Position numbers and translations under genes: made by a program
Source: Naegleria gruberi
Lineage: Eukaryota
Assembly: GCA_000004985.1 (NCBI GenBank)
Contig: GG738903.1
DNA: 64,000 bases
Strand: one strand, 5' to 3'
Part shown: piece by piece, positions 4,516 to 43,413 of the stretch
Position numbering within the stretch: the stretch's first letter is position 1
How the letters are laid out: every line of letters starts with the position of its first letter
The notes under the pieces: model-generated
What the model saw: the letters and a program-made list of their open reading frames with translations, nothing else
What the model was told of the DNA's origin: nothing
The model's database searches: none

Positions 4516-5451
4516 TTTAAAAGCCTTATTATAATCCTTCTACTATGTAATTATGTGATTTATGTAACTATGTGATTGAATAATGGGTGATTGAATAATG
4601 ATGAGAGGATCTAACTCTCTCCTGTTTTTTTAAATCAATGATGGTGAGGTGTAAATTGTTCGATATTTGGAGTTTACGGAGAGGAACAATTACAATAAAA
4701 GCCACTTGATCATTTAAAGACCTGTGTACATATTCACAATGACATTTGATGACATGTTATTGTTTTATCGTATTTATACAATTAATTGTTCATTGTGTTG
4801 ATAACACTGCTGAGAATATTAAAATATAACGGATATCATTCAGTGGTCTATTTAAAAAACGACAATTATTTTCCATCAAGTACAATATATGTAATATTGA
4901 ATAATTTACAAGTATTGTATTTAAATGTGGTGTTTAATTGTAATATTAATTTTTAAATAATTAATATTATTTAATTTTAATTTATTGAACATTTACTCAT
5001 CATGAACATTAACTAGACATCTCAATAATAGTACAATAATAGAATATTCATTAATAATAATACTATTAGATCTATTATTAATATACTATTATATTATGTA
5101 TTGTTTTTTTTAACAAGAATGCAATTAAGTGGTTTAACATATTTCCATTATTATATAATTTAGAAATAAATATACAAATAATAAATTGTTGTTCTGAAAA
5201 TGCTGAGATTAATACATTCCGATATAATAATAATAGTAGATGATGATGTTATTGTGCAATGCAAATTATGAATCATGATGATGATAATATTTGTATGATT
5301 TGATGATAATGTAATAATAAATGCATTTTTTAATAAGTGAGAATAAAATCAACATGTCAACTGTTAAACCATCATCATTTAATAATATAATAAAAATTTA
5401 TTTAAATATATAATACACAATGGAGAATTAACAACACAACAACAATAATAT

Positions 5452-8400
5452 TTAATAATTTCCTCTAACTCTAATAATACTAATATTCTTTTCACTTTCA
5501 TCATTATTTTCATCACTTCCATCACTACCATTATTAGTATTATACATATTATTATTACTACCAGTAATATTATTATTATTATTATTTATATTATTATTAT
5601 TTAAAATAATTTGATTATTAAAATGATAATATTTTAAAATATTATTAATTAAATAATCATATGATAATAATCTAATTCTTTGACAAGTAGCAGGTGAATC
5701 AAGTATAAAAATATTAAAATTATTTAAATTATTTCTTCTAAAAGATTTAATAGCATTTCTAATAGCAAATAAAACACAACATGCTAATTGTAAAGGTGGT
5801 TCACCAATTGCTTTAGATCTATATATATTACTATTACATTCTGTATTTTCTTTTAATAATAAATGTATTTTAAATTTTAAAGAAATATCATTAAATGATG
5901 GTATTTTATAATTTGATGGTCCTATTGAAAATAACATTCCACTATTTATCCATTTATTTATAATTATATTATTATTATTTAAATTATTTAAATTATTTAA
6001 ATTATTATTATTATCAATTAAATTATTTAAATTATTTAAATTATTATCACCCCATATTAATTCTTCCATTAAATATAAACCAATACCNNNNNNNNNNNNN
6101 NNNNNNNNNNNNNNNNNNNNNNNNNNNNNNNNNNNNNNNNNNNNNNNNNNNNNNNNNNNNNNNNNNNNNNNNNNNNNNNNNNNNNNNNNNNNNNNNNNNN
6201 NNNNNNNNNNNNNNNNNNNNNNNNNNNNNNNNNNNNNNNNNNNNNNNNNNNNNNNNNNNNNNNNNNNNNNNNNNNNNNNNNNNNNNNNNNNNNNNNNNNN
6301 NNNNNNNNNNNNNNNNNNNNNNNNNNNNNNNNNNNNNNNNNNNNNNNNNNNNNNNNNNNNNNNNNNNNNNNNNNNNNNNNNNNNNNNNNNNNNNNNNNNN
6401 NNNNNNNNNNNNNNNNNNNNNNNNNNNNNNNNNNNNNNNNNNNNNNNNNNNNNNNNNNNNNNNNNNNNNNNNNNNNNNNNNNNNNNNNNNNNNNNNNNNN
6501 NNNNNNNNNNNNNNNNNNNNNNNNNNNNNNNNNNNNNNNNNNNNNNNNNNNNNNNNNNNNNNNNNNNNNNNNNNNNNNNNNNNNNNNNNNNNNNNNNNNN
6601 NNNNNNNNNNNNNNNNNNNNNNNNNNNNNNNNNNNNNNNNNNNNNNNNNNNNNNNNNNNNNNNNNNNNNNNNNNNNNNNNNNNNNNNNNNNNNNNNNNNN
6701 NNNNNNNNNNNNNNNNNNNNNNNNNNNNNNNNNNNNNNNNNNNNNNNNNNNNNNNNNNNNNNNNNNNNNNNNNNNNNNNNNNNNNNNNNNNNNNNNNNNN
6801 NNNNNNNNNNNNNNNNNNNNNNNNNNNNNNNNNNNNNNNNNNNNNNNNNNNNNNNNNNNNNNNNNNNNNNNNNNNNNNNNNNNNNNNNNNNNNNNNNNNN
6901 NNNNNNNNNNNNNNNNNNNNNNNNNNNNNNNNNNNNNNNNNNNNNNNNNNNNNNNNNNNNNNNNNNNNNNNNNNNNNNNNNNNNNNNNNNNNNNNNNNNN
7001 NNNNNNNNNNNNNNNNNNNNNTCTGAATGCTATCTAATACTAATCTAACTGTTTGTTGACTTTTTAATGCTCCAATTGCACATGCACATGCTATTAAAAT
7101 ATTAAATTAAAAATATAAATTAAATATTAAATTAATAAATATTAAATAAATAAAATTTAAAAAAAAACCTACCTAAAACAGAAGCTCTTGTTTCTTTACC
7201 ACCAAAACCACCACCTATTTTTTGTGGAGTTTTAACTTGTATTTGATTCATTGATAAATTTAAAGCTTTTGAAACTAATTGTTGAGTTGTTGAAATTGAT
7301 TGAGTTGATGAATAAATAGTCCATCCACTCTTTTCAATAAAATTATTAGATTCAGGTATTACTAAACATGATTGTGTTTCTAAATAAAAATGTTCTTGTC
7401 CACCAATATAACAATCACCTTCTATATATTCATATTCATTTTCTATTTTAGTATTTTTAATCATTTCTTTAAATTCAGAAAATGAAATATTTGAACTTTG
7501 TAAATGTCTATATTGATCATTAAAAAATGAATTACTATTAATAGCATCATCTATATTTAGTATAGGTTTACTATTTTCAAATGGTTGATATTTAATAATT
7601 ACTTTTTTAGATGCTTCTCTTGCTTGATTTAAAGTATTTGCTAAAATTAAACCAATTAATTGTCCACATGAAGTTGATTCACTACTTTTAAATACTTCTT
7701 CTTCATTTGGTATTACAATACCAATATTATTATTTGGTACATCTTTATAATTTACAAAATATTTAACACCTTCCATTTCAAGTGCTTTACTTTCATCAAT
7801 TTCAATAATTTTAGCATAAGGTTGTGTTGTAAATATAGGATAGGCTTGTAATTCATTTTCTAAATGTGGAATATCATCTAAATATTGTGATTTTCCTTCT
7901 ACTGATTTTTTACCATATATATCAACATGATTTTTACCAATAGTATTTAATTCTTTAACTAAATTTAAATCAATTATATTTGATTTTAATTTTAAATCTT
8001 GAATATATTGTCCAAATTCATATTTATCTATTTTAGGTAAGTAATGATATTCACTTTGAATACTTTCTTCTTCTTTTGTAATATTTAAACAATTTAATTG
8101 TTTTTTAACATGTGTAAAAAATTTAATTAAAAAACTTTGTGATAATGTCATTCTATATAAGGATTGACCACCTGGTGTATTTTCATTTAAATTTAATTTT
8201 TCATTTAATAATTTAATTGAATTTTCTAAAATTAAATTATAATTTTCAATAAAATTCTTTCCAATTAAATATTCATTTAAATAATTTAAATAAATTACCA
8301 TAAATGACATTCCACCAAATGAAATTGAACAATCTTCAATTATATTATTATTATTTAATTTAATTGTCATACATGAATTAACAATTGCAATATCATCTTC

Positions 8401-9760
8401 TTTTCTTTTAGATTGTTTAAATGCTTTACAATAAATATTATTATCAGTTACTATATTTGGAATTATTACATTCAATAATATTTCAGTAGGTAATATATTT
8501 AATTTTCTATATCCAATATATAAATCTCTAATTGAAATATTTCTAATTTCATTTGTTTTAATATTTAATAAATTTAATTTAGCATTTAAAGATTGCCAAA
8601 TTGGGACAAGATCTGAAATTGGTGAACCTGTCATTATATTACCACCAATAGATGCAACATTTCTAATTGGAGTAGATGCAAACCATTTACATTGATCTAA
8701 AATTGTTTTAATTTTTCTATTTTTAAATTCTAAATTACTTTCCATAAATGTATTTAAATATTCCATTAATTTTTGTATAGTAATACTTGAACCAATTAAT
8801 AATTCATTAGAATTTTCATTTAATTGTAAATTTAACATTTCATTAATATTTATTAATGATATAAAATGTGAATATTCTAAATTACGATGTTTAATTTCCA
8901 AACTAACTTCTGTATTTCCAATTATGTATTTAGGAATTATATTTTTAGAATTTAAATTTAATATTATATTTTTTAATTCATTTAAATTAATTGGTCTATA
9001 CCATTCAATATTATCATCTTTATATGATAAATATTTAAATTTATAATTTCTTAATTCAAATGGAAATAAATATTCTTTTTCATATTTAATTTCATTTATA
9101 TTATTATTAATATTATTATTAGTAATAGTATTATCATCATTGGATGGAGTTGGTTCAGTTGTTTTATTTTTAACTTTACAACAACCACCTTCTTTATTAC
9201 AATTACCACATCCATTACCATAAATAGAAGTATTATTATTAGTATCATTTATATTATCATTTAAATCATGATTATATTCATCAGATAAAGATATAGCCAT
9301 ATCTAAAATAGATCTATAACCAGTACATCTACATAAATTACCATCTAAAGATAATTCAATTTGTTTAATTGTAGGCTTTGAATAATTTCTTAATAAGGAA
9401 TATAAACTCATAATAATACCAGGTGTACAAAAACCACATTGTAAAGCATTAAATTAAACAACTTTACTTTTTAATAAAGTTAAAATTGAATCTTGTTTAA
9501 TACCTTCTATAGTAATAATAGAACATCCATCTAAATGTATTAATGGATATAAACAGGCATTAATAGAATAATTAATAATCTTATTTTGTAATGTATCATA
9601 TTTAGATAACATTACAATACAACTACCACATCCACCTTCTGAACAACCTATTTTAGTACCTGTTAATTTTAAATATTCTCTCAAATATTCTGCTAAATTT
9701 AATTTAATTAATAAATTATTTAATTTTAATTCAATACGTTCACCATTAACATAAAATAAT
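5452..9760 (-). CDS. xdh: Xanthine dehydrogenase/oxidase (molybdenum hydroxylase). The N-terminal 2Fe-2S region is 9454..9760, the FAD and Mo-cofactor core is 7132..9453, and the C-terminal segment is 5452..6069. The middle is interrupted by assembly gap 6088..7021.
   Basis: N-terminal 2Fe-2S motif 'VNGERIELK...LTGTKIGCSEGGCGSC'. Second 2Fe-2S and FAD region 'CGFCTPGIIMSLYSLLRN...GNLCRCTGYRSI'. C-terminal 'AIGEPPLQLACCVLFAIRNAI' matches the conserved XDH C-terminus. Asn-rich insertions are present. Confidence 0.8.
6088..7021. other. assembly gap (run of N)
   Basis: N characters in the sequence. Confidence 1.
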
Positions 9761-14555: not shown

Positions 14556-15759
14556 ATGGAAAGAGACAACATGCAACATTTTAACTTTACAAAGGAACTA
14601 ATGATGAAACATAGTAAGGTAATGGGATTGTCTTATCTCAAAAGTGTAGCATATCTATTCATTTTAGAGGCTTCTTTTACTGAAACTGACCTCTCTATAA
14701 TGCCTACATACTCTCTGTATTTTAAAGAATATTCCATGTCAGAGGAGATTGAAATATTAAAGTTATGGCTGGATATTGCTTTCTTCATTGAAAATCATGC
14801 ACCTAGGAGATCCACATTCACAGTGAAGCCATTTAGACCTAGCAGTAGTGAAACACCACTAAAAAACCTCAAGCTATTAGGAGGTGATGTGATGCTTTCA
14901 ACTAACACAGAAAAGAACAGAATAACATCCCACAGAAAGATGAAAAAATACAAGCCTATTATTTCTCGTGTGAAAAATCACCATGATATAGTCATTGTAA
15001 GGAATATCTCTGTATTCAAAGAAGTGGGTGAAGAAGAGAGAAGAATTATACTCAAATTAATGAACAGAGATGAATACTGTCTCTACTTGCCCATTGTACT
15101 AAATATATATGCTAAGGATGTGGAATTTGAACATCTCCACTCACTCCCTTCTGACCATTTAGATGATAACTTTTTGTTAATGATGGCCTGTCACATTTCC
15201 ATTGCATTGAAATACCTTCACGCCAACAACATTGTACATAGAGATGTGAAACCATCCAATACTATGATAAGACCATTCAATAATCCAACATCATTGTTAT
15301 GGATTGTATTGATAGACTTTGGTTTAAGCTTTGAAATGGTAAAAGAACAAGGTGAATGCTATCAATTAAGTAGCAGTGAAGGTAAGAAAACTCTGGTCAA
15401 TGAAAATGTTGGTACTTACCTTTTCCAAGCTCCAGAAGTTCATAAAAAGCAAAACTATGATGAAAAGATTGACATTTACAGTCTTGGGGCTACTTTATTG
15501 TATCTCAAAAACAAGACCTCATATGAAATAATCTGTAAAAAAGACGAATTTGATCTTCAAGTTGATATGCAAACACTCCAATGGGATGATTTTAAATTTG
15601 GGAAAAAATATTGGAAATGGTTAATGAAGATCCAAAGAAAAGACCTTCAGCTCAAGAGCTTGCCGATTATTTTACTACTCTTTACAACAACCCACAAACA
15701 ACAAACGCAGAAACTAAAGACCAAGAAGATTTCGAAATGCTTTATGATCAAGAAAGATA
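14556..15759 (+). CDS. Divergent protein kinase, possibly a pseudokinase, with a frameshift at an A6 homopolymer near 15608..15613. The conserved kinase C-terminus continues in the +2 frame to a TAA at ~15757..15759.
   Basis: Motifs 'HRDVKPSNTMI', 'DFGLSF', 'GTYLFQAPEV' and 'DIYSLGATLLYL' are present. After the shift the sequence reads '...LEMVNEDPKKRPSAQELADYF...', a typical kinase subdomain XI. The Gly-loop and VAIK Lys are not evident. Confidence 0.55.
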
Positions 15760-16439
15760 AGAAGGTTAGCAAACAAATTGAAGATATTGGAATAACATTT
15801 ATAACATTGCCTTATTGGAATGAATCCTGTTGGAATATTTTCAAATGGTAAAGGTGTCAAATCTTTCCAAAACTTTAAAACCAATTGAGACATTTGAAAG
15901 ATTGACAACTCTTTCTACCCAAAAATTCATAATTCCATTTGCAACTCTACTTCTTTTTTCCTTAATTCTCAAATCTTTTGCCAATCTTTGCAAAAATTGA
16001 GTTGACTTCTTTTTGATTTTCATAATCTTTTAAAATTTGTTTACAAAATCTTACAATGGATTGATCATATTTTACAAATAAATTATGGAAAATTTGATTA
16101 TTCTGAATAGATTGAGTGTAAATCTCCATTTCATATTTGAATTGTTCACTGAAAATTTTAAATTCCATTACAATTTCATACAATTTCATGATGATCAATT
16201 GATTGATCAATAATCAAGTTTAAATCTTGACCAATTCGTTCAAAATCACTTTCTCTAAACCAAACTCTTCCCAAATCTTTATCAGATTACAATAGAAACA
16301 CCTCCTTTATCAAATGGGTTTGATTATTCTACTAACCTGACACCTGATATTTCATTACCCAATTACAACAACGTGATCGGTATTATGTATTAATGAGAAG
16401 GAATTAAATAATATTTAAAATAAAAAAATGTCTGAAGAT

Positions 16440-17180
16440 TGGGTTTGTGTTTTGTGATGCGATTTTATTAATGGGTGTGATGACCATCACAAATAACAGG
16501 CCGATAGGACGTATGTGTTGGAAGCTGTTAAACAACGTGGAAATGCGCTTGAATATGTAGACGAATCATTTAAATAAAGCCGATAGAGAAATTGTGTTGG
16601 AAGCTGTTAAACAAAATGGATGAGCACTTGAATATGTTGATTCATCATTTAAAAAAGATAGAGAATTTGTATTGGAAGCTGTAAAACATAATGGATGAGC
16701 ACTTTAATATGTTGATTCATCATTGAAAAAAGATAGAGAAATTGTATTGGAAGCTGTTAAACATAATGGATCAGCACTTAAATATGCTGATTCATTATTG
16801 AAAAGAGATAGAGAAATTGTATTGGAATCTGTTAAACATAATGGATCAGCACTTAAATATGTTGATTCTTCATTGAAAAAAGATAGAGAAATTGTATTGG
16901 AATCTGTTAAACAAAATGGATCAGCACTTCAATATGCTGATTTATTATTGAAAAAAGATAGAGAAATTGTATTGGAAGCTGTTAAACAAGATGGATTGGC
17001 ACTTGAATATGCTTATTTTCAAAATGACAGAGAAATTGTATTGGAATCTGTTAAACAAAATGGATCAGCACTTGTATATGCTGATTCATTATTTAAAAGA
17101 GATAGAGAAATTGTATTGGAAGCTGTTAAACAACATGAATTGGCACTTGAATATGCTGATTCATCTTTACAAAGAGATAT
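16440..17180 (+). repeat. Tandem array of about seven 102-bp (34-aa) DUF4116-like repeats. The 5'-most copies (16440..16720) carry in-frame TGA and TAA stops and a frameshift.
   Basis: Repeats read '...DREIVLE(A/S)VK(H/Q)NGSAL(K/Q/E)YADSLLKK'. Copies are near-identical at the nucleotide level. The upstream copies read 'ggatgagcac' where the intact copies read 'ggatcagcac'. Confidence 0.8.
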
Positions 17181-18981
17181 CATTTTTATATATTCACTTG
17201 TTAAATTGAACAAAGAAAATACAAGAAGCTTCTCACCCTCTATAACCAAAACCATTGAAGAAGCCAACATTAATCTTCAGAGAAAGCTGTCAAGCAATAT
17301 AATTGAACAGCAATACTCCAAAATATTTATGGATGAAAAGGATTTATATTATGCTATTGAATTAACAAGTCTCTTTAATCCAACACCAAAAGGTACAATA
17401 TTCAATTTCAATTCTATCTATACACCAATATTTGTTGAAAAGTTGATTATTTTCCAAATATTGAAACGAATGAACCATTCAGAATTATCCACTGAAACTC
17501 TTCTTTCAGCCAACTATTATTTATTTTGTTTCAGATTGGACAAATTTCTTGAAGATAATCCTTCTCAATCAACAAGAATGAAAGATTTGAAGAATATTGT
17601 GGAACAAGTTGCAACAAATTTTGAAACATTATTTTATACAAAACAGGAAATTAATGAAATTATGATTTTTTCCAACAAGTGGTTTGAAAATGAGCAAACA
17701 TTTGAGAATTACAAACAAATAGTGTGTAAATATAACGAGGTGAGAGGAGATTTATCAAAAGTATTCAAAGCTCTCAATTATTTCTATAATTATTTCAAAT
17801 ATAATTATGATTTCATTTCAGTATTAGGATATGGAGGTGAAGGTGTTGCATTTAAAGTATTTCATAAAAGTAGTAAATCATTAAGGGCATTAAAATTAAA
17901 ATATGACCCAGAGGAATCTGAAGAATCAACAAAAGAAACCATTAATTTATTGAAAAGAACAGATATTGAAGGAAAGATCAAATGTTTTGATTGTGAAATT
18001 ATTCAAAATCATTTATATTCAGTGATGGAACTTGGAGAGGAATCATTATCAAATTATATTTATAGAAATAATCAAGATGGAATTTATAGAAATGGATTCA
18101 TTAAGAAGGAAAAGTTGATTGAAATTCTTGAAATATTTATCAAAGTATTAAACTCAGTCAAATCAATTCATGATCACAATATTTTACACAGAGATTTAGA
18201 TCCTCAAAATATTGTCAAAGTTCAAGATTTATACAAAATAATTGATTTTGAAACATCAAGAGTTATCAAGACAGGTAATTCAATTACAATTGCTCGTGGA
18301 AAGTTTGCATACATGTCTCCTGAAGTTTCACATGATAATTATTCTGATGATTTATTGAAAAGTGGTAATGATGAAAAGCTTGCTCACAATGTTGGACAAA
18401 TTACCATTTCATGTGATATATTCTCTTTGGGATGTATTTTATTGAAATTATTGACAAATTGTCCATTACAATTATGTTCAACATTTGTTAATGATTCAGC
18501 CATCTCTAAATATAATGATAATTATCCATATTTTAGTGGGCATGGAAAATATTTCTATACAGTTGTAACAAATACTGAGGGAGAAATGAAATTACATTAT
18601 GCAATTGAAAAACTAATCAATGAAACCATTAATCCAGATTTAGGAGTGAACAGCATATTAATTAGAAGCATTATTAGCATGATTCAAAGAGAGTCATCAA
18701 AAAGATTAGATTGTTATTCTCACAAGTTAACAATTGAGAATATTTTGAAATTTTTGAAAGATGAAATCAAAGATATCACTTTGAATATTGAAAAACAAGT
18801 TGGCGAATTGAAGAAAATCTCACCATTAAGAAGTTACTCTCAACTTGCAGAGGAAGTTGATAAACTTGCAGAGGAAAACACCAACCTATATAAACTTTTG
18901 GATGAAAACACCAGGGAAAATAGCAACCTATTAGAAAGAATTAAAATGTTGGAAGAAGAAATAAGAAAACTCAAACAATAA
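16723..18981 (+). CDS. Protein kinase with an N-terminal array of DUF4116-like 34-aa repeats and a C-terminal coiled-coil. The true start is uncertain: no in-frame ATG for ~200 codons, and the ORF-track start is a TTG.
   Basis: Kinase motifs 'GYGGEGVAFKV', 'LHRDLDPQNIV', 'DFETSRV' and 'YMSPEV'. Terminal heptad-like 'LAEEVDKLAEENTNLYKLLDENTRENSNLLERIKMLEEEIRKLKQ'. Confidence 0.7.
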   Translation: MKKDREIVLEAVKHNGSALKYADSLLKRDREIVLESVKHNGSALKYVDSSLKKDREIVLESVKQNGSALQYADLLLKKDREIVLEAVKQDGLALEYAYFQNDREIVLESVKQNGSALVYADSLFKRDREIVLEAVKQHELALEYADSSLQRDIIFIYSLVKLNKENTRSFSPSITKTIEEANINLQRKLSSNIIEQQYSKIFMDEKDLYYAIELTSLFNPTPKGTIFNFNSIYTPIFVEKLIIFQILKRMNHSELSTETLLSANYYLFCFRLDKFLEDNPSQSTRMKDLKNIVEQVATNFETLFYTKQEINEIMIFSNKWFENEQTFENYKQIVCKYNEVRGDLSKVFKALNYFYNYFKYNYDFISVLGYGGEGVAFKVFHKSSKSLRALKLKYDPEESEESTKETINLLKRTDIEGKIKCFDCEIIQNHLYSVMELGEESLSNYIYRNNQDGIYRNGFIKKEKLIEILEIFIKVLNSVKSIHDHNILHRDLDPQNIVKVQDLYKIIDFETSRVIKTGNSITIARGKFAYMSPEVSHDNYSDDLLKSGNDEKLAHNVGQITISCDIFSLGCILLKLLTNCPLQLCSTFVNDSAISKYNDNYPYFSGHGKYFYTVVTNTEGEMKLHYAIEKLINETINPDLGVNSILIRSIISMIQRESSKRLDCYSHKLTIENILKFLKDEIKDITLNIEKQVGELKKISPLRSYSQLAEEVDKLAEENTNLYKLLDENTRENSNLLERIKMLEEEIRKLKQ

Positions 18982-19401
18982 ACTCCCAACACACAAAATG
19001 TAAGTTCCACAAACAACTATGCGAAATGAAATATATTGATTTCAAACTGGGCCATTAGAACTTGAATAGTTTGTTCACTTGAAAGGTTAAATTGAAATAA
19101 ATCATTTCCCTACGTGATTTCTCTTGTAATGGTTAACTTGTGAGAATAACAATCCAATCTTTTTGAGTGGCATTTGGGGAAATTTCCCATGTTTGTTGCA
19201 TTCAAATAACATTGTATTGAGAACATCCCTTTCGTGATAATCGTTATTGGTACAATTCGTGAAAGATCAGTAAGTGTTTCAGTTTCGAATAATGATTTAT
19301 TTCAGCCAACGAAACAACATAAACCAAAACCGAAACATTTCTCTGCAAGCAGAAATTCCACTTTTTTCTTTCACTTGTTTTTCCACCTGCAGTGACAAAT
19401 G

Positions 19402-20080
19402 TCACTTTCTTGTCATCAAAATTAATGCCATACTCTGTACACTACAAACTACACACCTCAGAAAGATACTAAAACAAAAAATTAGTGTGAAACAAAAAAC
19501 ATGTGCGACGAGAAAAGCAAGCCAAAAAGAATCGTTTCCTAATCCTTGCTTTAGGTGCGAAAAGATTGTAGTGATTCCAGAAGAATTTCCCTTAATCTTA
19601 ATGTAAATATCTGGAATGAAACTCTCATGATTCTTGAGTTTCCTTACAAAAATGTCAACATTTTCGAATAAATTGAGAGAATCTTGACAGCTATTTCTTA
19701 TCATATATGTTCATAATGAGTTTGATAATTTTTGAATCACTTGAAGGAGTGAATCAAAGAAGGTTTGGCTAGAAATCTCTCTCCAAGCAAATACATAGTC
19801 CAATATTACTACCTCTATATGTATTATTTCATCTAGTGGAAGAATTCTCTTTCTTAATTTTCTCTCCTTTCCCAAAGATAATTTTTTTCAAAGAAGCTCT
19901 TGAATTCTCTTCTCTCTGAATATCATCCATTGAAAGTGAATCAACTAGCTGACATTCTTTCCATACTTTTGTATCAATATCAAACACTTCAGTATCTCTG
20001 AATCTGGCATAACAATCGGTTCCTCCATGTAGAATGAGATATTCATATTGAGAATCAAAGTTATGATTAATATTAGACAT
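19402..20080 (-). CDS. Possible multi-exon gene with one Kelch-like motif. The structure is unresolved.
   Basis: 'YEYLILHGGTDCYARF...FDIDTKVWKE' resembles a Kelch blade. The downstream ORF 19402..19704 lies on the same strand. Confidence 0.25.
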
Positions 20081-21452: not shown

Positions 21453-24400
21453 TTAATAATAGTTGATTAAGCATACAATGATAACAACAAATAATACCAT
21501 CATAATCATTGAATGTTTTAACATTGAGGAAGAATTGAGTGTAATAGTAGTTGATGTCATTAAATCAGAAGGTGATGGTTGAATTGGTGAAGGTTGTTGT
21601 TGTTGGTTATTAAAAAATCTTAGAATATCAAATGAATGATAACTTTCAACAACTGAAGAAGAAGCCAATTGATTTCTACTTGTTCTTCTACTGGAAATTC
21701 CATCATTTGTTAGAATAGTTTCTGTATGAATGAAACAATCATTAACACTTCCAAATGTAGAATTGGAAAACATTTGTGAAGTTAATTTAAAACTAAATGC
21801 AATTTGATTATTAACAAATGGGAATTTGATAATTGTTGATTCATATTGAGATATTTCACTTTGATTTCTAACAAGTTGAATCCAACTAGTCATTAATGAA
21901 GGATTGTAAACAGTACATCCTAGTTGACCATTTGTTAAATCAAATGTTGGCATTGATCGACCTGAACTAACACAACACAAATAAGAATTCTTAATAGAAA
22001 TTCTAACTGTACTTTGTAATGAAGCTGCCTTTCCTTCAGTATCTACAACCTTTACAACAACATGTGGCTTTTCAGATAATTGAAATAAATTCTTTGATTC
22101 CTTGAAATTATCAGAAAATAAACTCAATTGAGTTAAAAGTTTAAATTCTGAAGGAGGTGGATTAATTGGCATGTAATACGAAAGTGAAATAATTAATGGT
22201 ACTTGATATAAATCACCCTCTGGAGATTTAACATAAACTTGGAATGTGAAATCACCTGAATAGTAATTTAAATATTCTCTTGCTATAATTGTCATGTAAT
22301 ATTCACCATTTGATTTGAATTGTAATGAAATATCAAATGACACATTGTGATTTGGTTCTGACTTGCTAAATGAAACACTTTCAATGAAGGCTTTTTGTGA
22401 GAATAAAGTACCTGAAACTTTCAATTTGTTATTCGAAACTGACAGTAATTCTCTTCTGAATGAAATTTGACTAATTGAACTATTTGAATTAACAACACCC
22501 ATATCAATATATTGATGAGATGAAAGTAATAACTTGATTTGATGATCAACTTTGTAATTTGTAATTTGACAATAATTATTATTAGAAATTAAACTAATGT
22601 AAATTGGAACTGTCAAGGTAAGAACAACTCCAGAAGAATCTAATTGTTGAGTGACTCTTGAATCAGAAATCAAATCAGAAATAGAAGTAGAAATAGAATA
22701 TTGAGTTTCACATGTCAATTGACTTGTAGAATTTGTGACAAGATCAGTAACATTTCTTTCACAAGTAGAAATTTCAGAGAATGATAATCTTGTCATGTTT
22801 GTAGATCTTGAAAGAATATTAGAAACTGAAATGGTATACATAATCTTTGAAGATCCTAAATTTGTAACTGAAACCTTTGGCGGAGAATTAATAAACGAAA
22901 GACAATTCTCCGTCTGAATTTCACACATTGAACCACTTGAATATGGAGGACATGTGAGACAAGATGTGGAATTGATACAACTTTCACATGTAGATGGACA
23001 AGTATTACTGCAATCTGAACCATATAATCCATTAAAACATTTAGAACATTGATTTGGAGATGAACATGCAATGCAATTCTCATTACAAACTGGAATTTGA
23101 CATGTTGGACCTGTCCATCCAGATCTACATGTTGAACATGATACCTCTGATGAACATGATTTGCAATTAGATGGGCATATAATATTACAATAACTTCCAT
23201 AATATCCTTCGTTACATTCTAAACAATCACCTGTACTTGTTGAACAGGTTGCACAATTGGAAACTTTACAAACTTTCTCATTACAATATTGACCTTTCAA
23301 ACCATCTAAACACTTATTACATGTTTCACTTGATGAACATACTTCACAATTAACTAAACATTTGAGTCTACATAATTTAGAAGTATCATAAAATCCACTC
23401 TTACATGATTGACAATTAGATGCAGATGGAAGACAATTAGAAACTGAACTAATCTCACAATTAGTACCATTATATCCATTTGGACATGAACAATTATTAG
23501 GTGAGAGACATGAACCAATACCAGAACAAACACTTGCAACATCAGCTCTCTTTCCACCACAAATTGGAACTTCACAATTAATTCCTGCATAACCTGTTTT
23601 ACAATAACACATATCAAGCTCTTCACAAATTCCGTTTCCACTACATACATTAGGATCTGAATCAAATAATCCATTACACATGGTTGGTGAATAAATCATA
23701 TTTCCAATAACTTGCTTTCCAACACCACCTCCCCATAAAGAACCTGAAGTGGATGGATTTGCTGCTGGATATGGAAATTTATAGAAAGGTCCTACAATGT
23801 AATTATTACCATTATATGCTGTGAACATGAGAGAGTTATATTCTATAAAAGTTATTCTAGTGATTCTCTCAGTTGTTCCAATGAATGATGTAGATAAGAG
23901 TGTTGGATAGGAAACTCTTGGTAGTAATGAACTCCAGGAACCTGTGTAAAATATTTTGCCACTCTCCATTAGATACATCACAACATTTTGTGAAAAAGAA
24001 ATGGACAGGAGAATTTCACTTCCAAAAGTAGTAATGTCTAATTCTAGTGGTGAATACTGACAAAGTCCAGTATTTGTACCGTAGTAATTATCAGAAATTG
24101 GACCCCAAGCAAATAATTTTCTTGATTCTCTACTGTAAGCGAAACATAAATTTTGTAAAGAATAGCAAGAAAGGTATGAAATTTTGTGTGGGATAGCCAA
24201 TTTTGTAAAGTTTGTTTTGTAAACTCCAAAAAATCCACTTGGATAACAACCAGCAACAGATAATTCACCAAAAGATCTAACATTTCCTTCTTTAGTCAAA
24301 AAAAAGGAATAGAAATAATTTGTTTGAACATCAATAAATGTCTCATTAATTCCAGTATTGTAAACCATTGTTGGAGAATTAGGGAATGAAGGATAACTTT

Positions 24401-26279
24401 GGGCTGGAGTAAATGGAGTGACTAGTAAAATACCTGGAACAGATGTTGTTGCCATGAATCTAGCTGAGTAACTAGATAGACTTGTAAAAGGTGCAAATGT
24501 AGCATTTTTGAATAGTAATGTACTAACTGCAGATGTTGTTGAAGTTGGTTGTGTGTAGCTGAATATAACATCTCTTCTATTTCCAATACTGTAGCCATTT
24601 GATTCAATATATCTAATGCGATATGGGAAGATTGCATAAGGTGCATTGAAAGTTGGTAAAAATAAAGTTTCAAAATAATTTGGACCAGTTGAGCAAGTTT
24701 GCCCAGTAAAACCAGCATCACATTTTGTGCAAGTCTTATCATCTGAACAAGTCAAACAATTAGGAATGCATGTAAATGAACAAGTAGCACCAAATGTTCT
24801 TGGTAAACATGATGAACACAAATATGGTGTTGTACATTTAAGGCAACTTTCAGGACAAATAACTGAGGAACAATTAACACCTCCATAACCAGAGTTACAA
24901 ACACAAACACCGTCAATACATTGACCATTCGCACAATTGGTACATTTAGGTGCACATGTTGGTGGTGGAGAGGATGTTATAGAATTCTTACATGTCAAAC
25001 AACTTGTTGCACTCTTACATGTTAAACAATTAGGATTACAATAGAATTGACACAATGGACCATAGAATCCATTTACACAACTTGAGCAATTCATATTTGA
25101 ATAATCACATGCAGAACATGTGAATGGACATGTGAATGGAGGACTTTCAATAGTGAGTTGTTTTGGGAATGTTAAAACTGGTTGACCAGAAACTATTCCT
25201 TGTAGTTCATAAACACCAGGTGGTAAACTTGTAATATCAATTTGTTCACCTTTACATGGTAATTGAGCTTGTTGATTGTAGCCACTCTTATAGAAATTGA
25301 GAATTAAACTTGAGTAACGGTTACATAAAGCAATTTCAAAAGTGTTGAAGTAAATTCTTGAAGATTGTTGATAAATGATTGAATTAGGATAAACAGATAA
25401 GGAGATTAAATTATTAAACAATACTCTATTTCTAACTTGTAATTGATAATTACCCATGCTATGTCTACTAAAATATTGATAGTAATCTGTTTGTATTGGA
25501 AACCAATCTCCAAAATGATCGAAAAATGGAATAATTTCAGAAACAATATCCACTTCAAAACAATTAAATAGGTAGCATGGATATGCATTCACAATACGTG
25601 TATGTTTCACTTTTTTAGAAGCAAAATTAGCAAAGTTATCCATACCAGCAGCAGGTGAACCGAAAGTAATCAATTGAGCTCTATCCATTGGAATTGACAA
25701 TTCTTGTCCAATAATTGTAGCAGCAACTTGAGCTAAAGCACCACCTTGTGAATGCCCAGTCCAAATTATTCTATATCCAGAATAACCATTCACAAAATTC
25801 TTCAATATTTGCTTGTATTCTAAAATTTCAAAAAGAAAACCTGCATGCAGCCAAATAGTTGTTGTTGGTGTTATGGCGTATGGCACTGGAACAGCTTCAA
25901 AGTTTTGTATCCAATCTAAATAACCATCAGTTCCTCTAAAGGAAAAGACAATCTTCTTCTCTGAAGTAGAAACATAAATATTGAACACGGAAACAGACTC
26001 ATGATATCTGTAGACAAGTGTGTATTCTGGAACATAAGTAGAAGAAGTTGACAAATCATTATAAGCATCATTGGATAATACAGCAGCTGCGTAAACATCT
26101 CTATTGAAATATCCAGTATAATAGGGCTCATAGAAGGAACGTTCTGGATGTCCTCTCTCCATCATACGACGAGCAATGACACTCTCATTATATTCACTTG
26201 CCACAACTGTGTTTTGAAAACAAAATTGGACAACAAGTGACACTATTAAAGTGACAAGTAATAGTTGTGTTTTTTTCAT
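21453..26279 (-). CDS. Secreted or membrane-anchored class-3 lipase fused to about 25 tenascin/laminin-type EGF repeats and a C-terminal TM anchor.
   Basis: Signal peptide 'MKKTQLLLVTLIVSLVVQFCF'. Lipase_3 nucleophile motif 'GHSQGGALAQVAA'. Many 'C.C..G(Y/F).G..C' EGF units. Terminal 'MIMMVLFVVIIVCLI'. The start was re-set to the ATG at 26277..26279. Confidence 0.75.
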   Translation of the reverse strand: MKKTQLLLVTLIVSLVVQFCFQNTVVASEYNESVIARRMMERGHPERSFYEPYYTGYFNRDVYAAAVLSNDAYNDLSTSSTYVPEYTLVYRYHESVSVFNIYVSTSEKKIVFSFRGTDGYLDWIQNFEAVPVPYAITPTTTIWLHAGFLFEILEYKQILKNFVNGYSGYRIIWTGHSQGGALAQVAATIIGQELSIPMDRAQLITFGSPAAGMDNFANFASKKVKHTRIVNAYPCYLFNCFEVDIVSEIIPFFDHFGDWFPIQTDYYQYFSRHSMGNYQLQVRNRVLFNNLISLSVYPNSIIYQQSSRIYFNTFEIALCNRYSSLILNFYKSGYNQQAQLPCKGEQIDITSLPPGVYELQGIVSGQPVLTFPKQLTIESPPFTCPFTCSACDYSNMNCSSCVNGFYGPLCQFYCNPNCLTCKSATSCLTCKNSITSSPPPTCAPKCTNCANGQCIDGVCVCNSGYGGVNCSSVICPESCLKCTTPYLCSSCLPRTFGATCSFTCIPNCLTCSDDKTCTKCDAGFTGQTCSTGPNYFETLFLPTFNAPYAIFPYRIRYIESNGYSIGNRRDVIFSYTQPTSTTSAVSTLLFKNATFAPFTSLSSYSARFMATTSVPGILLVTPFTPAQSYPSFPNSPTMVYNTGINETFIDVQTNYFYSFFLTKEGNVRSFGELSVAGCYPSGFFGVYKTNFTKLAIPHKISYLSCYSLQNLCFAYSRESRKLFAWGPISDNYYGTNTGLCQYSPLELDITTFGSEILLSISFSQNVVMYLMESGKIFYTGSWSSLLPRVSYPTLLSTSFIGTTERITRITFIEYNSLMFTAYNGNNYIVGPFYKFPYPAANPSTSGSLWGGGVGKQVIGNMIYSPTMCNGLFDSDPNVCSGNGICEELDMCYCKTGYAGINCEVPICGGKRADVASVCSGIGSCLSPNNCSCPNGYNGTNCEISSVSNCLPSASNCQSCKSGFYDTSKLCRLKCLVNCEVCSSSETCNKCLDGLKGQYCNEKVCKVSNCATCSTSTGDCLECNEGYYGSYCNIICPSNCKSCSSEVSCSTCRSGWTGPTCQIPVCNENCIACSSPNQCSKCFNGLYGSDCSNTCPSTCESCINSTSCLTCPPYSSGSMCEIQTENCLSFINSPPKVSVTNLGSSKIMYTISVSNILSRSTNMTRLSFSEISTCERNVTDLVTNSTSQLTCETQYSISTSISDLISDSRVTQQLDSSGVVLTLTVPIYISLISNNNYCQITNYKVDHQIKLLLSSHQYIDMGVVNSNSSISQISFRRELLSVSNNKLKVSGTLFSQKAFIESVSFSKSEPNHNVSFDISLQFKSNGEYYMTIIAREYLNYYSGDFTFQVYVKSPEGDLYQVPLIISLSYYMPINPPPSEFKLLTQLSLFSDNFKESKNLFQLSEKPHVVVKVVDTEGKAASLQSTVRISIKNSYLCCVSSGRSMPTFDLTNGQLGCTVYNPSLMTSWIQLVRNQSEISQYESTIIKFPFVNNQIAFSFKLTSQMFSNSTFGSVNDCFIHTETILTNDGISSRRTSRNQLASSSVVESYHSFDILRFFNNQQQQPSPIQPSPSDLMTSTTITLNSSSMLKHSMIMMVLFVVIIVCLINYY

Positions 26280-26691
26280 CTTGATGAATTTTGAATACCA
26301 ATGTATTGAATTGCTGTGATTGGTTGTTTGCATTGTGCGTGGGTGGGAATGCTCACGTTGAGACTTCCCAACCAAGGTTTTGACAGGTTGGACATGTTGA
26401 ACAGAAATGCAAGGTAATGCATTAAATGAGAATCTCATTATCCAACTTTGAGCTTTAAATACCAACAACTAGTTTTTTAATTAGGACATAACTATCTTAC
26501 TGATTTAAAACTACGAACGATAAGTTTGTATTTTTTTGTTGTTGAGCAGTAGGAATCTTTATTGATATTCCTAATGGATGTTAGATAATAGCAAATAATA
26601 TTTTCATGGTTTTTACTAGACTTTGCATAGTATTTAAAAATATGAAAACTAATGCTTGTGGTTTAACTATGAAAGAAAAAGAAACAAAAGC

Positions 26692-41049: not shown

Positions 41050-43413
41050 TTACAATATGATATCTATTGCACTCTCTTCTTTTAGTGAAATGTATTTTGG
41101 AATCAGTTTTTGCATTTCTTTTTCTAGTTCTGTTGTGAATTCTCTATTGTTTTTCAGCTCGTTTGAAGCAAATTTGAGAGTATATGGTATTTCCAATACC
41201 GCAGCAGTTACAATCTGCTTATCGTTTCTCAATTCCTCTGAGGCAAACTTGAGAGCATTTCCATTTTTAGAGATGGCTGCTAGTACTACTTGCCTATCAT
41301 TTTTCAGTTCCTCTGAGACATACTCGAGGTTTAATCCATTTTGTTGTACTTTTTGTAATGCTAATTCTCTATTATCTATTATTGATAGTGGTTGAGAGGA
41401 AAATACAAATGGTAAAATATAAGTAAATGGTTTTTTGAAAATGAGAATGTCGCCATCTTGTTTCAGTTCTTCAGATGCAAATCTAAAGGAAGAGCCATTG
41501 TTTTGAACTGCCTTCATAACAACCTCTTTGTCATTTCTCAATCTATCCGATGCATATTCAAGAACAATTCCATCCAGTTGAACTGCAGCTAGAACAATAT
41601 CCCTATCGTCCCTTAGTTCTTCTGTGCAGTGTTGTAAAGCTATTGGATTATTTTTAACTGCTTCCATAGCAATAATCTTGTTTCCTTTAAAAGATGTTCC
41701 ACAAAATTTAAGAGAATTTCCATTTTTTCTAATGGCCAAGCTAACTATTTCTAAATCATTCCTTAAAGCCTTACATGCATACCCAAGATTGTTACCGTCT
41801 CTTTTAATAGCTTCTGTAACAATATGACGATCTTTCTTCAATTCCTCAGATGCATAACTAAATGATCCACCATCGGTATTCATTGCCTCTATTATTACAT
41901 CCTTATCATTTCTCAAATTTTCACATGAATAATATAGAGCATTACCATAATTCTTCACTGCTTTCAAGACCATTTCCTTATCATTGTTGAAATGAGGAAT
42001 GCAACATAGTGCTTGTCCTTTTAATTCCATTATTTTTAACATGAATTCTCTATTATTCTTCAATTCTTCAGAGGTCAGTGATAGATTTTTAATTGCATCC
42101 TGAGGTTCACTCATCAATGCAACTTGATAAATGATTTGCTGATCATTCAAAAGTTTAGTAGAGGCATACATAATAGCGTTTGAATTTTGAGTAATAGCCT
42201 CCATTACAATTTCAAAATCATTTCTAAAAGAGAGTGCATATTCAAGAGACATGCCATTTTGTTTTACACACCCTAAAACAAGTTCTTTCTCTATCAAAAA
42301 GTCCTCTGGTGATACAAATTGAAGATTGAGGCCATTCTTTTCACATACATACGAAACAACACTCTTACTATTTTTAAATGGGTGTTTTAAATTTTGAAAA
42401 CAATCAACCAAGCTAGTAACTTTGCCATTCAAATTATCAAACATCACCTGAAATATATTTTCAATAGAATATCTATTGTCTTCGTGAATACATGTCATTC
42501 CTTTACATAAGTCCTTAATTACAATCCATGAAGAAGGATCATTCTCAAATTCGCTAATAGTGGTAGTAGTATTAGTAATAATATTTTGGAATAATGTTTC
42601 GATATCATTCCACAATTCTTCTTGTTGATATTTTAATTGTAAGTGAAATCGATCTAGAAATAGAAATGATAGAATAGTAATACCCAGACTAAAAATATCA
42701 CATTTGCAGGAACATTTTCCATTAAGGATTTCTGGAGCAATAAACCCAATTGTACCAGCAAAACCTGTAGCAGAAGAGTAACAGGAGCTAGTACAATCAT
42801 CAACCAATTGCTCATTATTTTCCTCATTTAACAATAACATATCATCTAAATTATTTTCTGCCATTGTGGCACATCCTAAATCTCCCAACACTATCATTCC
42901 CTCCTCACTCATAAAAATATTTTCCGGTTTAACATCTCTGTGAATGATATGATTCAGTGATAGGGATTGCAAAGCTCCACAACACTGCACAATGATTTGT
43001 AATACCATTAAAATTGAAACTCTTTCCAAGTTTTTTCTCACATCACGCAAATTATTTCCTCTAAATTTAGATATAATAACATATTCTCGTAAGGTTATAG
43101 AGGCTTCATCATCATCATTATAATTATTAAAAGTTTTCATCGATAAAACATTGGCATGATTTGTGTGTTTATACTTTTGCAAATACTCGCTTCTGGTTTC
43201 TCCAGTCTCAAGTAAACCTGAATCATCATGAATAATTTTAAAAACCATCAATGATTGATCGCTCATCTTTCTACACTTGTAAACCCATGTTGTTGGATTT
43301 CGGTAAATTTCTGCTATGGGAAAATAGTATTCACCTTGAAATTCAAAACTTGTTCCATTGTTGTTATTATGGAAAAGAAGCGAAGAAATGGTGGACTGAA
43401 GAGATTTGGTCAT
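41050..43413 (-). CDS. Protein kinase (N-terminal) followed by about 12 DUF4116-like repeats. The domain order is inverted relative to the 16723 gene.
   Basis: Kinase motifs 'HRDVKPENIF', 'LGDLGCA' and 'GFIAPEIL'. Repeats such as 'VVLAAISKNGNALKFASEELRNDKQIV'. Confidence 0.7.
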   Translation of the reverse strand: MTKSLQSTISSLLFHNNNNGTSFEFQGEYYFPIAEIYRNPTTWVYKCRKMSDQSLMVFKIIHDDSGLLETGETRSEYLQKYKHTNHANVLSMKTFNNYNDDDEASITLREYVIISKFRGNNLRDVRKNLERVSILMVLQIIVQCCGALQSLSLNHIIHRDVKPENIFMSEEGMIVLGDLGCATMAENNLDDMLLLNEENNEQLVDDCTSSCYSSATGFAGTIGFIAPEILNGKCSCKCDIFSLGITILSFLFLDRFHLQLKYQQEELWNDIETLFQNIITNTTTTISEFENDPSSWIVIKDLCKGMTCIHEDNRYSIENIFQVMFDNLNGKVTSLVDCFQNLKHPFKNSKSVVSYVCEKNGLNLQFVSPEDFLIEKELVLGCVKQNGMSLEYALSFRNDFEIVMEAITQNSNAIMYASTKLLNDQQIIYQVALMSEPQDAIKNLSLTSEELKNNREFMLKIMELKGQALCCIPHFNNDKEMVLKAVKNYGNALYYSCENLRNDKDVIIEAMNTDGGSFSYASEELKKDRHIVTEAIKRDGNNLGYACKALRNDLEIVSLAIRKNGNSLKFCGTSFKGNKIIAMEAVKNNPIALQHCTEELRDDRDIVLAAVQLDGIVLEYASDRLRNDKEVVMKAVQNNGSSFRFASEELKQDGDILIFKKPFTYILPFVFSSQPLSIIDNRELALQKVQQNGLNLEYVSEELKNDRQVVLAAISKNGNALKFASEELRNDKQIVTAAVLEIPYTLKFASNELKNNREFTTELEKEMQKLIPKYISLKEESAIDIIL

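What the first reader, a model, noticed from the sequence alone, without database searches (positions are those of the whole stretch)
16440..18981. Kinase with an N-terminal array of 34-aa DUF4116-like repeats; the 5' repeats are decayed with repeated in-frame TGA
About seven 102-bp repeats are near-identical at the nucleotide level, which points to ongoing concerted evolution. The upstream-most copies (16440..16720) contain in-frame TGA and TAA codons and a frameshift. The same TGA (ggaTGAgca) occurs in two consecutive copies, so a mutated repeat was itself re-duplicated. There is no in-frame ATG for ~200 codons, so the true start is unclear. The gene may be 5'-truncated, or it may start upstream via an intron.
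Basis: partly seen in the sequence, partly recalled or inferred. Interest (0 to 1): 0.55.

Follow-up and report, generated by a model that had tools for sequence, protein, structure and literature searches.

The report
Naegleria repeat-kinase gene, damaged 5' end
This is an already annotated Naegleria gruberi protein-kinase gene with an N-terminal array of 25-residue DUF4116 repeats. Its first three repeats are broken by a frameshift and stop codons, which the database gene model covers with an implausible tiny exon and intron. It is an ordinary case of partial gene decay in a fast-evolving gene family.

Summary
The window is Naegleria gruberi NEG-M. The locus is GenBank EFC38917.1, "TTK family protein kinase", 754 aa.

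**What holds up**
- The repeats are real DUF4116 (Pfam E=4e-79).
- The period is 75 bp (25 aa), not 102 bp. There are nine units.
- All lesions lie in units 0-2: TAA 16575 with a net +4 nt frameshift, TGA 16621, TGA 16696 (exactly 75 nt later) and TAA 16705.
- The next 757 codons are open. They are as conserved as in five paralogs (91-94% identity).

**Where the gene starts**
- The family's real start lies upstream: ATG 16428 (MSEDW), a 57-nt GT..AG intron, then ADRTYVLEAVKQRGNAL. This equals the first 22 residues of paralog EFC46769.1.
- That intron does not bypass the lesions.
- The GenBank model begins at an out-of-frame ATG inside broken unit 2 (16691). It uses a 26-nt "intron" to regain frame, which is probably an artefact.

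**What it most likely is**
- Recently 5'-disabled copy, a young pseudogene or null allele: about 0.45.
- Main rival, about 0.30: a 226-nt intron (GTATGT 16511 to AG 16736) removes all lesions and gives a 756-aa protein from the conserved start.

RNA-seq (PRJEB23822) would decide between them. Interest is low.

The parts
16428..16442 (+). Family-conserved first exon, ATG TCT GAA GAT TGG = MSEDW, in an A-rich start context (aaaaaaATG).
   Evidence: Identical to residues 1-5 of paralog P0004/EFC46769.1. P0001 and P0003 have equivalent short first exons ending in W.
16443..16499 (+). Intron 1, 57 nt, GTTTGT...AACAG. It carries an in-frame TGA at 16455, so it cannot be coding.
   Evidence: Removing it joins MSEDW to ADRTYVLEAVKQRGNAL, matching P0004 residues 1-22 at 22/22. 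It shows no similarity to a repeat unit.
16500..16581 (+). Repeat unit 0 (Ala codon GCC + 79 nt). It ends in TAA 16575-16577 and carries a net +4 nt relative to other unit boundaries, which shifts the frame.
   Evidence: It is 21/25 identical to unit 0 of P0004.
16582..16656 (+). Repeat unit 1, with TGA at 16621-16623 where intact units have TCA (Ser).
16657..16731 (+). Repeat unit 2, with TGA at 16696-16698 (75 nt after the first TGA) and TAA at 16705-16707.
16732..17175 (+). Intact repeat units 3-8. Each is 75 nt except unit 6, which is 69 nt. Each 25-aa unit is predicted as a helical repeat.
   Evidence: Pfam DUF4116 E=4.1e-79. AlphaFold2 gives pLDDT about 90-95 and a regular helix pattern per unit. 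Units are listed.
17176..17805 (+). Family-specific, mostly helical linker domain. It holds the first in-frame ATG, at 17329.
   Evidence: AlphaFold2 helices at aa 235-358. No Pfam hit. Conserved in paralogs P0001-P0010.
17806..18762 (+). Protein kinase domain. It has the glycine-rich loop GYGGEG, the conserved Lys, HRDLDPQN and DFE instead of DFG. The closest solved relatives are TTK/Mps1.
   Evidence: Pkinase E=1.3e-23. TTK chains E about 1e-12. Generic kinase fold matches.
18835..18981 (+). C-terminal long helix, probably a coiled coil, followed by the TAA stop at 18979-18981.
   Evidence: AlphaFold2 helix at aa 705-751.
16691..16736 (+). 5' end of the deposited GenBank model EFC38917.1. 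It consists of a 20-nt exon (16691-16710, MDEHFNI), read in the +1 frame of broken unit 2, and a 26-nt 'intron' (16711-16736).
   Evidence: join(16691..16710,16737..18981) translates exactly to P0127.
16511..16736 (+). Candidate 226-nt lesion-skipping intron, ACG|GTATGT ... GATAG|A. It is hypothetical.
   Evidence: Among the 30 frame-restoring GT..AG pairs, this donor (16511) is the only consensus-like one. Paired with the first usable acceptor, it contains all four lesions and gives a 756-aa ORF from the family start. Its length is typical for N. gruberi, whose average intron is 203 bp (PMC8296547).

Best explanation
**Shown.** The locus is the annotated N. gruberi NEG-M gene EFC38917.1. It is a dispersed member of a Naegleria family built as follows:
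- a short first exon;
- a 57-nt intron;
- an array of 25-aa DUF4116 helical repeats, presumably a protein-binding solenoid;
- a helical linker;
- a TTK-like kinase domain;
- a C-terminal coiled coil, presumably for oligomerisation.

In this copy the family start codon and first intron are intact. Repeat units 0-2 carry one +4 frameshift and up to four stop codons. The full-length protein therefore cannot be made from the conserved start by the conserved splicing. Units 3-8 and the rest of the gene (757 codons) are open and normally conserved. The deposited model's 5' end is most likely a gene-predictor fix, not biology.

**Inferred.** I think this copy was disabled recently, as a young pseudogene or a null allele captured in the assembly. 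The lesions arose in a repeat block that was still being amplified or homogenised. That is how one TCA>TGA change came to sit in two adjacent units.
For: - Organism and locus: four neighbouring ORFs are exact matches to N. gruberi NEG-M proteins on one 304,373-bp scaffold. P0127/EFC38917.1 maps exactly to join(16691..16710,16737..18981).
- Architecture: Pfam, PDB sequence search and the AlphaFold2 model, pLDDT 82.
- Conserved start and intron: 22/22 residues match P0004. Equivalent first exons occur in P0001 and P0003.
- Lesions.
- Recent origin: the post-repeat part is 91-94% identical to each of five paralogs, which are 90-93% identical to one another. It has 11 private substitutions against 3-13 in the paralogs.
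- Timescale: about 7% of possible substitutions in the intact ORF would create a stop. An open 2271 nt therefore allows only about 1-2% neutral divergence.
- Dynamic array.
- The GenBank 5' end is doubtful for three reasons. Its ATG is the 11th ATG downstream of the family start. Its exon is in the wrong frame of a broken repeat. Its 26-nt intron is shorter than the 30-bp minimum judged appropriate for N. fowleri predicted genes, and the N. gruberi average is 203 bp (PMC8296547).
Against: - The lesions are strongly clustered. Three or four lesion events fall in the first 208 nt of exon 2 and none in the following 2271 nt. The chance of this under uniform decay is about 6e-4 to 7e-3. This fits continued selection on the downstream part better than plain death.
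- No expression data could be reached.
- No paralog DNA was available, so no dN/dS could be computed.
- The clustering P-value is inflated by ascertainment, because the locus was flagged for exactly this pattern.
Confidence: 0.45

Rival explanations
1. The gene is alive. The three broken units now lie inside a second intron, with donor ACG|GTATGT at 16511 in unit 0 and acceptor GATAG|A at 16736. The mRNA would run from the conserved ATG 16428 and encode a 756-aa protein, MSEDWADRT|EIVLEAVKHNGSAL..., with six intact repeats plus a hybrid first unit. Stop-bearing exon sequence would have been 'intronised'.
For: - Of the 30 frame-restoring GT..AG pairs, the donor at 16511 is the only consensus-like one. 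The resulting intron contains all four lesions and nothing else that is needed.
- This explains why lesions are confined to 16575-16707 while 2271 nt downstream stay open and normally conserved.
- The 226-nt length matches the N. gruberi mean of 203 bp.
- The GenBank predictor chose the same acceptor, 16736.
- Paralogs tolerate about 6 to 23 units, so losing three should be harmless.
- The conserved intron 1 also has a GTnTGT donor and an A-rich acceptor context.
Against: - There is no transcript evidence.
- The GTATGT is simply the ancestral Thr-Tyr-Val codons of the first unit, so it may never be used.
- The acceptor is preceded by an A-run, not pyrimidines.
- Units 1-2 carry few private substitutions (0 and 3 per 75 nt). 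That is less than expected if they had long been intronic.
- The N. gruberi splice consensus could not be established here.
Confidence: 0.3
2. The deposited GenBank model is correct. Translation starts at ATG 16691, a 26-nt intron (16711-16736) is removed, and a 754-aa protein results.
For: The model exists and gives an open frame. It uses a plausible acceptor.
Against: - Exon 1 is 20 nt of a broken repeat read in the wrong frame.
- Its peptide MDEHFNI has no counterpart in any paralog N-terminus.
- Ten ATGs lie between the conserved start and this one.
- A 26-nt intron with donor GTTGAT is far below the species average and below the 30-bp floor used for N. fowleri.
- The model ignores the conserved start and intron 260 nt upstream.
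Confidence: 0.07
3. A repeat-less kinase is made from the first in-frame ATG after the array (17329), as in the paralog model EFC46895.1 (P0005), which starts at the equivalent Met.
For: The Met is conserved in the five closest paralogs, and one annotated paralog model starts there.
Against: - Units 3-8 (207 codons) would then be untranslated, yet they carry no lesion. The chance that all lesions fall in the first 208 of 829 nt is about 0.016 (calculated by hand from the coordinates).
- Every repeat unit contains an out-of-frame ATG that would capture scanning ribosomes.
Confidence: 0.08
4. The lesions are sequencing or assembly errors in a draft Sanger assembly, and the real gene is intact.
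For: The scaffold is a draft, with two N-gaps within 14 kb of the locus. All lesions lie within 133 nt.
Against: - The same C>G change at the same position of two adjacent units and a 4-nt insertion are not typical base-calling errors.
- Four other units with the identical context are read as TCA.
- There are no Ns near the locus.
Confidence: 0.05
5. The in-frame TGAs are decoded, either as selenocysteine or by readthrough.
For: N. gruberi belongs to lineages with selenoproteins. This is from my own knowledge and was not checked here.
Against: - No SECIS-like element was found in 15800-20000.
- The TGAs replace an ordinary Ser codon in a repeat.
- Two TAA stops and a frameshift accompany them.
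Confidence: 0.01

Closest known systems
N. gruberi DUF4116-kinase paralogs on the 573-kb scaffold (EFC46769.1, EFC46884.1, EFC46883.1, EFC46766.1, EFC46895.1)
   Same: They share the architecture, with 91-94% identity after the repeats. They share the first exon and intron position, and the short 'YAYFQN' unit third from the array end.
   Different: This copy sits on another scaffold (304 kb). It has a private homogeneous block of NGSAL units, and its first three units are broken. Unit number differs: 9 here against about 6 to 23 in the paralogs.
TTK/Mps1 protein kinases
   Same: They are the best solved-structure relatives of the kinase domain (E about 1e-12). They share an insert before the SDxWSLGC motif. 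GenBank names the gene 'TTK family'.
   Different: Similarity to TTK is low (phmmer score about 50 bits, E about 1e-12), and fold matches are about 18-21% identical. The catalytic loop reads HRDLDPQN (Asp in place of the usual Lys), and DFE replaces DFG. N-terminal DUF4116 repeats replace the TPR domain of Mps1 (the TPR point is from my own knowledge). Orthology was not tested.
DUF4116 repeat family (Pfam PF13475)
   Same: The match is strong, with a 25-aa unit. The predicted structure is a helical repeat, in line with the alpha-solenoid model published for the family (PMC8078820).
   Different: Nothing distinguishes it at the repeat level. The function of the family is unknown.
Intronisation of stop-bearing exon sequence (Catania & Lynch 2008; Irimia et al. 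2008; cited from memory)
   Same: Premature stops are confined between a strong latent donor and an acceptor inside former coding sequence.
   Different: Splicing has not been shown here, so this is only a candidate.

Membership tests
DUF4116 repeat (PF13475) | Score above the Pfam gathering threshold, in tandem copies | tested here: met
   260 bits against a cut-off of 24.9, with five stretches. The period is 75 bp.
Eukaryotic protein kinase (PF00069) | Pkinase profile match above the gathering threshold | tested here: met
   84 bits against a cut-off of 31.7. Kinase fold matches in the PDB.
Eukaryotic protein kinase (PF00069) | Canonical catalytic residues (VAIK Lys, HRD Asp, catalytic-loop Lys/Asn, DFG Asp) | tested here: inconclusive
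   The Lys (K391, nearly invariant), the HRD Asp, the Asn and the DF(E) Asp are present. The catalytic-loop Lys is Asp, and the DFG Gly is Glu. These changes are shared by all paralogs. Activity was not tested.
TTK/Mps1 kinase family | Orthology to Mps1 (reciprocal best match or phylogeny, spindle-checkpoint role) | not tested
   The only evidence is that TTK is the best solved relative and that GenBank uses the name.
Pseudogene (unprocessed) | Frame-disrupting lesions relative to the family-conserved reading frame | tested here: met
   One frameshift and three to four stops lie between the conserved start and unit 3.
Pseudogene (unprocessed) | Relaxed constraint across the gene body | tested here: not met
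   There are no lesions in 2271 nt. The gene has 11 private substitutions against 3-13 in paralogs.
Pseudogene (unprocessed) | No productive transcript or protein | not testable with these tools
   Neither N. gruberi transcript data nor paralog DNA could be reached.
Spliceosomal intron (candidate 16511-16736) | GT..AG boundaries, restoration of the frame and a species-typical length | tested here: met
   The length is 226 nt against a species mean of 203 bp.
Spliceosomal intron (candidate 16511-16736) | An observed splice junction in RNA | not testable with these tools
   This needs RNA-seq PRJEB23822 (PMC6142364).

The most novel reading that the evidence does not exclude
The three stop-bearing DUF4116 units have been turned into a new 226-nt intron. 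It would use a latent GTATGT donor in the first unit and the GATAG acceptor of unit 3, so the gene is still expressed from its conserved start. That would be a caught-in-the-act case of intron birth by intronisation of coding repeats after premature stop codons, in a heterolobosean protist.
Probability: 0.3. Interest if true: 0.5.

Novelty: already known. Interest (0 to 1): 0.17.

Why it matters
Mostly this matters for annotation. The deposited model of EFC38917.1 starts in the wrong place and hides a broken 5' end. Two sister models look similarly patched: EFC46895.1 starts after the repeats, and EFC46769.1 skips about 150 residues. Counts and architectures of this expanded Naegleria kinase family should therefore be treated with care. 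The locus is also a small, clean example of how tandem coding repeats are amplified, homogenised and damaged. If the lesion-skipping intron is real, it would be a rare natural example of intron gain from exon sequence. Public RNA-seq could test this directly.

Tried and rejected
- **Paralog DNA for dN/dS and lesion comparison.** The look-up of encoding contigs has no record for P0003, P0004 or P0005. None of the paralogs lies in the window.
- **'The locus is unannotated'.** I first concluded this because no hit was near 100% identical. It was wrong. The model was hidden as a second member of the 90% cluster of P0005.
- **Search for transcript-derived fragments.** I queried the non-repeat part 17176-18000 and got no hit at all, although 90%-identical paralogs exist. 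This is a limit of the word index, so the result is uninformative. Clusters of neighbouring N. gruberi-specific genes contain only NCBI members. The collection therefore seems to hold no N. gruberi transcript assemblies.
- **Exon 1 and intron 1 as a decayed repeat unit.** Rejected: 95% of shuffles score as high.
- **The unit0/unit1 junction as a duplicated intron tail.** The junction reads aaataaAGCCgatag and the intron tail reads aaataacagGCCgatag. The similarity is not significant (p=0.17). Only the extra Ala codon GCC before units 0 and 1 remains suggestive.
- **Selenocysteine.** No SECIS element was found.
- **N. gruberi splice consensus.** I tried to learn it from another gene in the window and got 221 frame-compatible candidates, which is too ambiguous. 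Literature searches gave only the mean intron length.
- **Literature on DUF4116 and Naegleria TTK kinases.** There was nothing specific beyond a predicted alpha-solenoid.
- **Fold search.** It returned only generic kinases.
Full report
**What is in the sequence**

Positions 16514..17179 hold a tandem array with a 75-bp period, 8.9 copies and 87% matches. Start-to-start spacings are 75 nt except for one of 69 nt. In register, the units are:
- u0 at 16503-16581 (79 nt, preceded by an Ala codon GCC at 16500);
- u1 at 16582, u2 at 16657, u3 at 16732, u4 at 16807 and u5 at 16882;
- u6 at 16957 (69 nt), u7 at 17026 and u8 at 17101.

The unit is therefore 25 aa, not 34 aa, and there are nine units. 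Pairwise nucleotide identity is 82-93% among u1-u8 and 67-77% for u0.

The ORF 16723..18981 scores DUF4116 (PF13475) at E=4.1e-79 and Pkinase at E=1.3e-23. A second kinase gene with DUF4116 repeats in the same window (41050..43413, minus strand) has the same 75-bp period. Its units are only 60-71% alike. The array under study is thus unusually homogeneous.

**The lesions**

In the repeat frame there are four stops and one frameshift:
- TAA at 16575-16577, with a net +4 nt at the u0/u1 junction (tttaaaTAAAGCCgatag against ttgaaaaaagatag in the other units);
- TGA at 16621-16623 in u1;
- TGA at 16696-16698 in u2, exactly one period later, where all other units of this type have TCA;
- TAA at 16705-16707 in u2.

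From 16708 to the TAA at 18979 there are 757 open codons. The first in-frame ATG in them is at 17329, 207 codons in. The repeat length, the copy number and the status of 16440-16499 are not.

**Whose gene it is**

Four neighbouring ORFs are exact matches to N. gruberi NEG-M proteins EFC38921, EFC38922, EFC38923 and EFC38925, all on one 304,373-bp scaffold. The best relatives of the kinase are five N. gruberi proteins, all on a different 573,072-bp scaffold.

I first took the absence of a near-100% hit to mean the locus was unannotated. That was wrong. The 90% cluster represented by P0005 contains a second member, P0127 = EFC38917.1 / XP_002671661.1 / D2VVX2. It is named 'TTK family protein kinase', has 754 aa and lies on the 304-kb scaffold. 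Its sequence equals the translation of join(16691..16710,16737..18981) exactly.

**The real 5' end**

Paralog P0004 (EFC46769.1) begins MSEDWADRTYVLEAVKQRGNAL. The window has three matching pieces:
- ATG TCT GAA GAT TGG (MSEDW) at 16428-16442, after an A-run;
- 57 nt, GTTTGT...AACAG, containing an in-frame TGA;
- GCC GAT AGG ACG TAT... = ADRTYVLEAVKQRGNAL.

That is 22 of 22 residues. P0001 and P0003 have equivalent short first exons (MNINEW, MNKNEW) followed by ADRKYVL. The family start codon and first intron are therefore present and intact at 16428-16499. The 57 nt are not a decayed repeat. All lesions lie downstream of this intron, so it does not rescue the frame.

**The deposited model**

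EFC38917.1 starts at ATG 16691. That ATG is formed by the last two bases of an Asn codon and the first base of the Gly codon of broken unit 2. The model reads the TGA lesion as GAT GAG in the +1 frame for 20 nt (MDEHFNI). It then removes 26 nt (GTTGAT...GATAG) to return to the repeat frame.

Four points argue against it:
- The peptide has no counterpart in any paralog.
- Ten ATGs lie between the family start and this one.
- The N. gruberi mean intron length is 203 bp.
- 30 bp was taken as the minimum intron length for N. fowleri predicted genes (PMC8296547).

I regard this 5' end as a predictor's repair of a broken frame.

**How the array evolved**

Compared unit by unit with P0004:
- u0 matches its u0 (21/25).
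- u6 matches its odd 23-aa 'YAYFQN' unit.
- u7 matches its u7.
- u8 matches its last unit.

The ends of the array are therefore positionally conserved. In between, P0004 has varied units, whereas the window has five units of a single 'NG(S/stop)AL' type that are 88-93% identical in DNA. This is a lineage-specific amplification or homogenisation. Unit number among paralogs ranges from about 6 to 23.

The shared TGA in u1 and u2 fits either duplication of a mutated unit or short-tract conversion between neighbours. The two units differ at 6 of 75 positions. Three of those differences are shared with flanking units and three are private to u2.

**Is the gene dead?**

The post-repeat part is 91-94% identical to each of the five paralogs, which are 90-93% identical to one another. 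It has 11 private substitutions against 3-13 in the paralogs. There is no sign of relaxed constraint.

About 6.9% of all possible single substitutions in the open 2271 nt would create a stop. At 2% neutral divergence the chance of staying open is 0.04. All three or four lesion events fall in the first 208 nt of exon 2 (8.4% of it). The probability of that under uniform decay is 6e-4 to 7e-3, although the figure is inflated by how the locus was picked.

Two readings remain.
- **(a) A very young pseudogene or null allele.** The clustering would be chance, or would come from one complex event.
- **(b) The broken units are no longer part of the mRNA.**

I enumerated all single GT..AG removals that restore an ORF from ATG 16428. 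This gave 30 solutions using three donors. Only one donor is consensus-like, ACG|GTATGT at 16511. With the first usable acceptor, GATAG|A at 16736 (the one GenBank also uses), it defines a 226-nt intron. That intron contains every lesion and yields a 756-aa protein MSEDWADRT|EIVLEAVKHNGSAL....

I could not test splicing. No N. gruberi transcript data or paralog DNA is reachable with these tools. I could not derive a splice consensus either.

My estimates are:

| Explanation | Probability |
|---|---|
| (a) young pseudogene or null allele | 0.45 |
| (b) lesion-skipping intron | 0.30 |
| GenBank model correct | 0.07 |
| Repeat-less kinase from ATG 17329 | 0.08 |
| Sequencing or assembly error | 0.05 |
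| Decoding of TGA | 0.01 |

On TGA decoding: no SECIS element was found, and the TAA stops and the frameshift accompany the TGAs.

**What the protein would do**

AlphaFold2 with 19 family sequences gives mean pLDDT 82. It shows:
- a regular helical repeat for the DUF4116 units (pLDDT 90-95);
- a helical linker domain (aa 235-358);
- a kinase fold;
- a 47-residue terminal helix.

A published contact-based model also makes DUF4116 an alpha-solenoid (PMC8078820). The closest solved kinases are TTK/Mps1 (E about 1e-12). Fold matches are generic kinases.

The catalytic loop reads HRDLDPQN and the DFG motif is DFE, in all paralogs. Activity is therefore plausible but unproven. By inference only, the repeats act as a binding scaffold and the coiled coil as an oligomerisation element of a signalling kinase.

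**Verdict**

The 'upstream start via an intron' idea is right for the ancestral gene but does not fix the frame. The gene and its family are already in the databases. The new information is that the deposited 5' end is probably an artefact, and that the first three repeats are dead sequence. This is ordinary biology for an expanding gene family, and interest is low. One testable, more interesting possibility remains, the lesion-skipping intron.

Noticed in passing
window 41050-43413 (-): A second kinase gene with DUF4116 repeats has the opposite domain order. Pkinase lies at aa 43-321, followed by 11 DUF4116 stretches (E=4e-142). It has the same 75-bp period, but its units are only 60-71% identical in DNA. 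The ORF as read is not an exact database entry.
   Followed up: partly
window 3064-3642 and 6088-7021; 3643-9411: There are two runs of N (579 and 934 nt), which are assembly gaps. The sequence between and after them is about 20% G+C, against 30-35% in the rest of the window. It holds a 759-aa ORF (7132..9411, minus strand) with xanthine-dehydrogenase domains and Asn-rich inserts. The composition is odd for this scaffold. It could be a divergent gene, a misjoin or foreign sequence.
   Followed up: partly
paralog proteins P0004 (EFC46769.1) and P0005 (EFC46895.1), 573-kb scaffold: The P0004 model skips about 150 residues between NPTPK and VLGYGGEG, which are coding in all relatives. The P0005 model starts at the Met just after the repeat array. 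Other family members may also carry lesions that gene models paper over. No DNA was available to check.
   Followed up: no
window 16571-16590 versus 16491-16510: Only units 0 and 1 are preceded by the Ala codon GCC. The u0/u1 junction (aaataaAGCCgatag) resembles the end of intron 1 plus the start of exon 2 (aaataacagGCCgatag). This hints that the +4 frameshift came from a duplication or recombination that included the intron/exon boundary. The similarity is not significant on shuffling (p=0.17).
   Followed up: partly
window 54006-61612 (-) and 21453-26468 (-): There are two very large cysteine-rich EGF-repeat proteins. One ends in a kinase domain (2211-aa ORF plus an upstream 322-aa ORF in another frame, probably joined by an intron with donor TTG|GTAAGT at 60651). 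The other starts with a class-3 lipase domain. The first contains long tandem repeats of 117/234/351 bp at 58740-60006.
   Followed up: no
window 14556-15851 (+): Another kinase ORF (431 aa, HRDVKPSN) lies immediately upstream on the same strand. It is not an exact database entry as read, so its model probably has further exons. The window holds at least four kinase genes.
   Followed up: no
The search for homologous proteins: Two tool behaviours are worth knowing. The annotated protein of the locus itself was invisible because it is a non-representative member of a 90% cluster. A query of the non-repeat 275 aa returned no hits although 90%-identical proteins are in the collection.
   Followed up: yes
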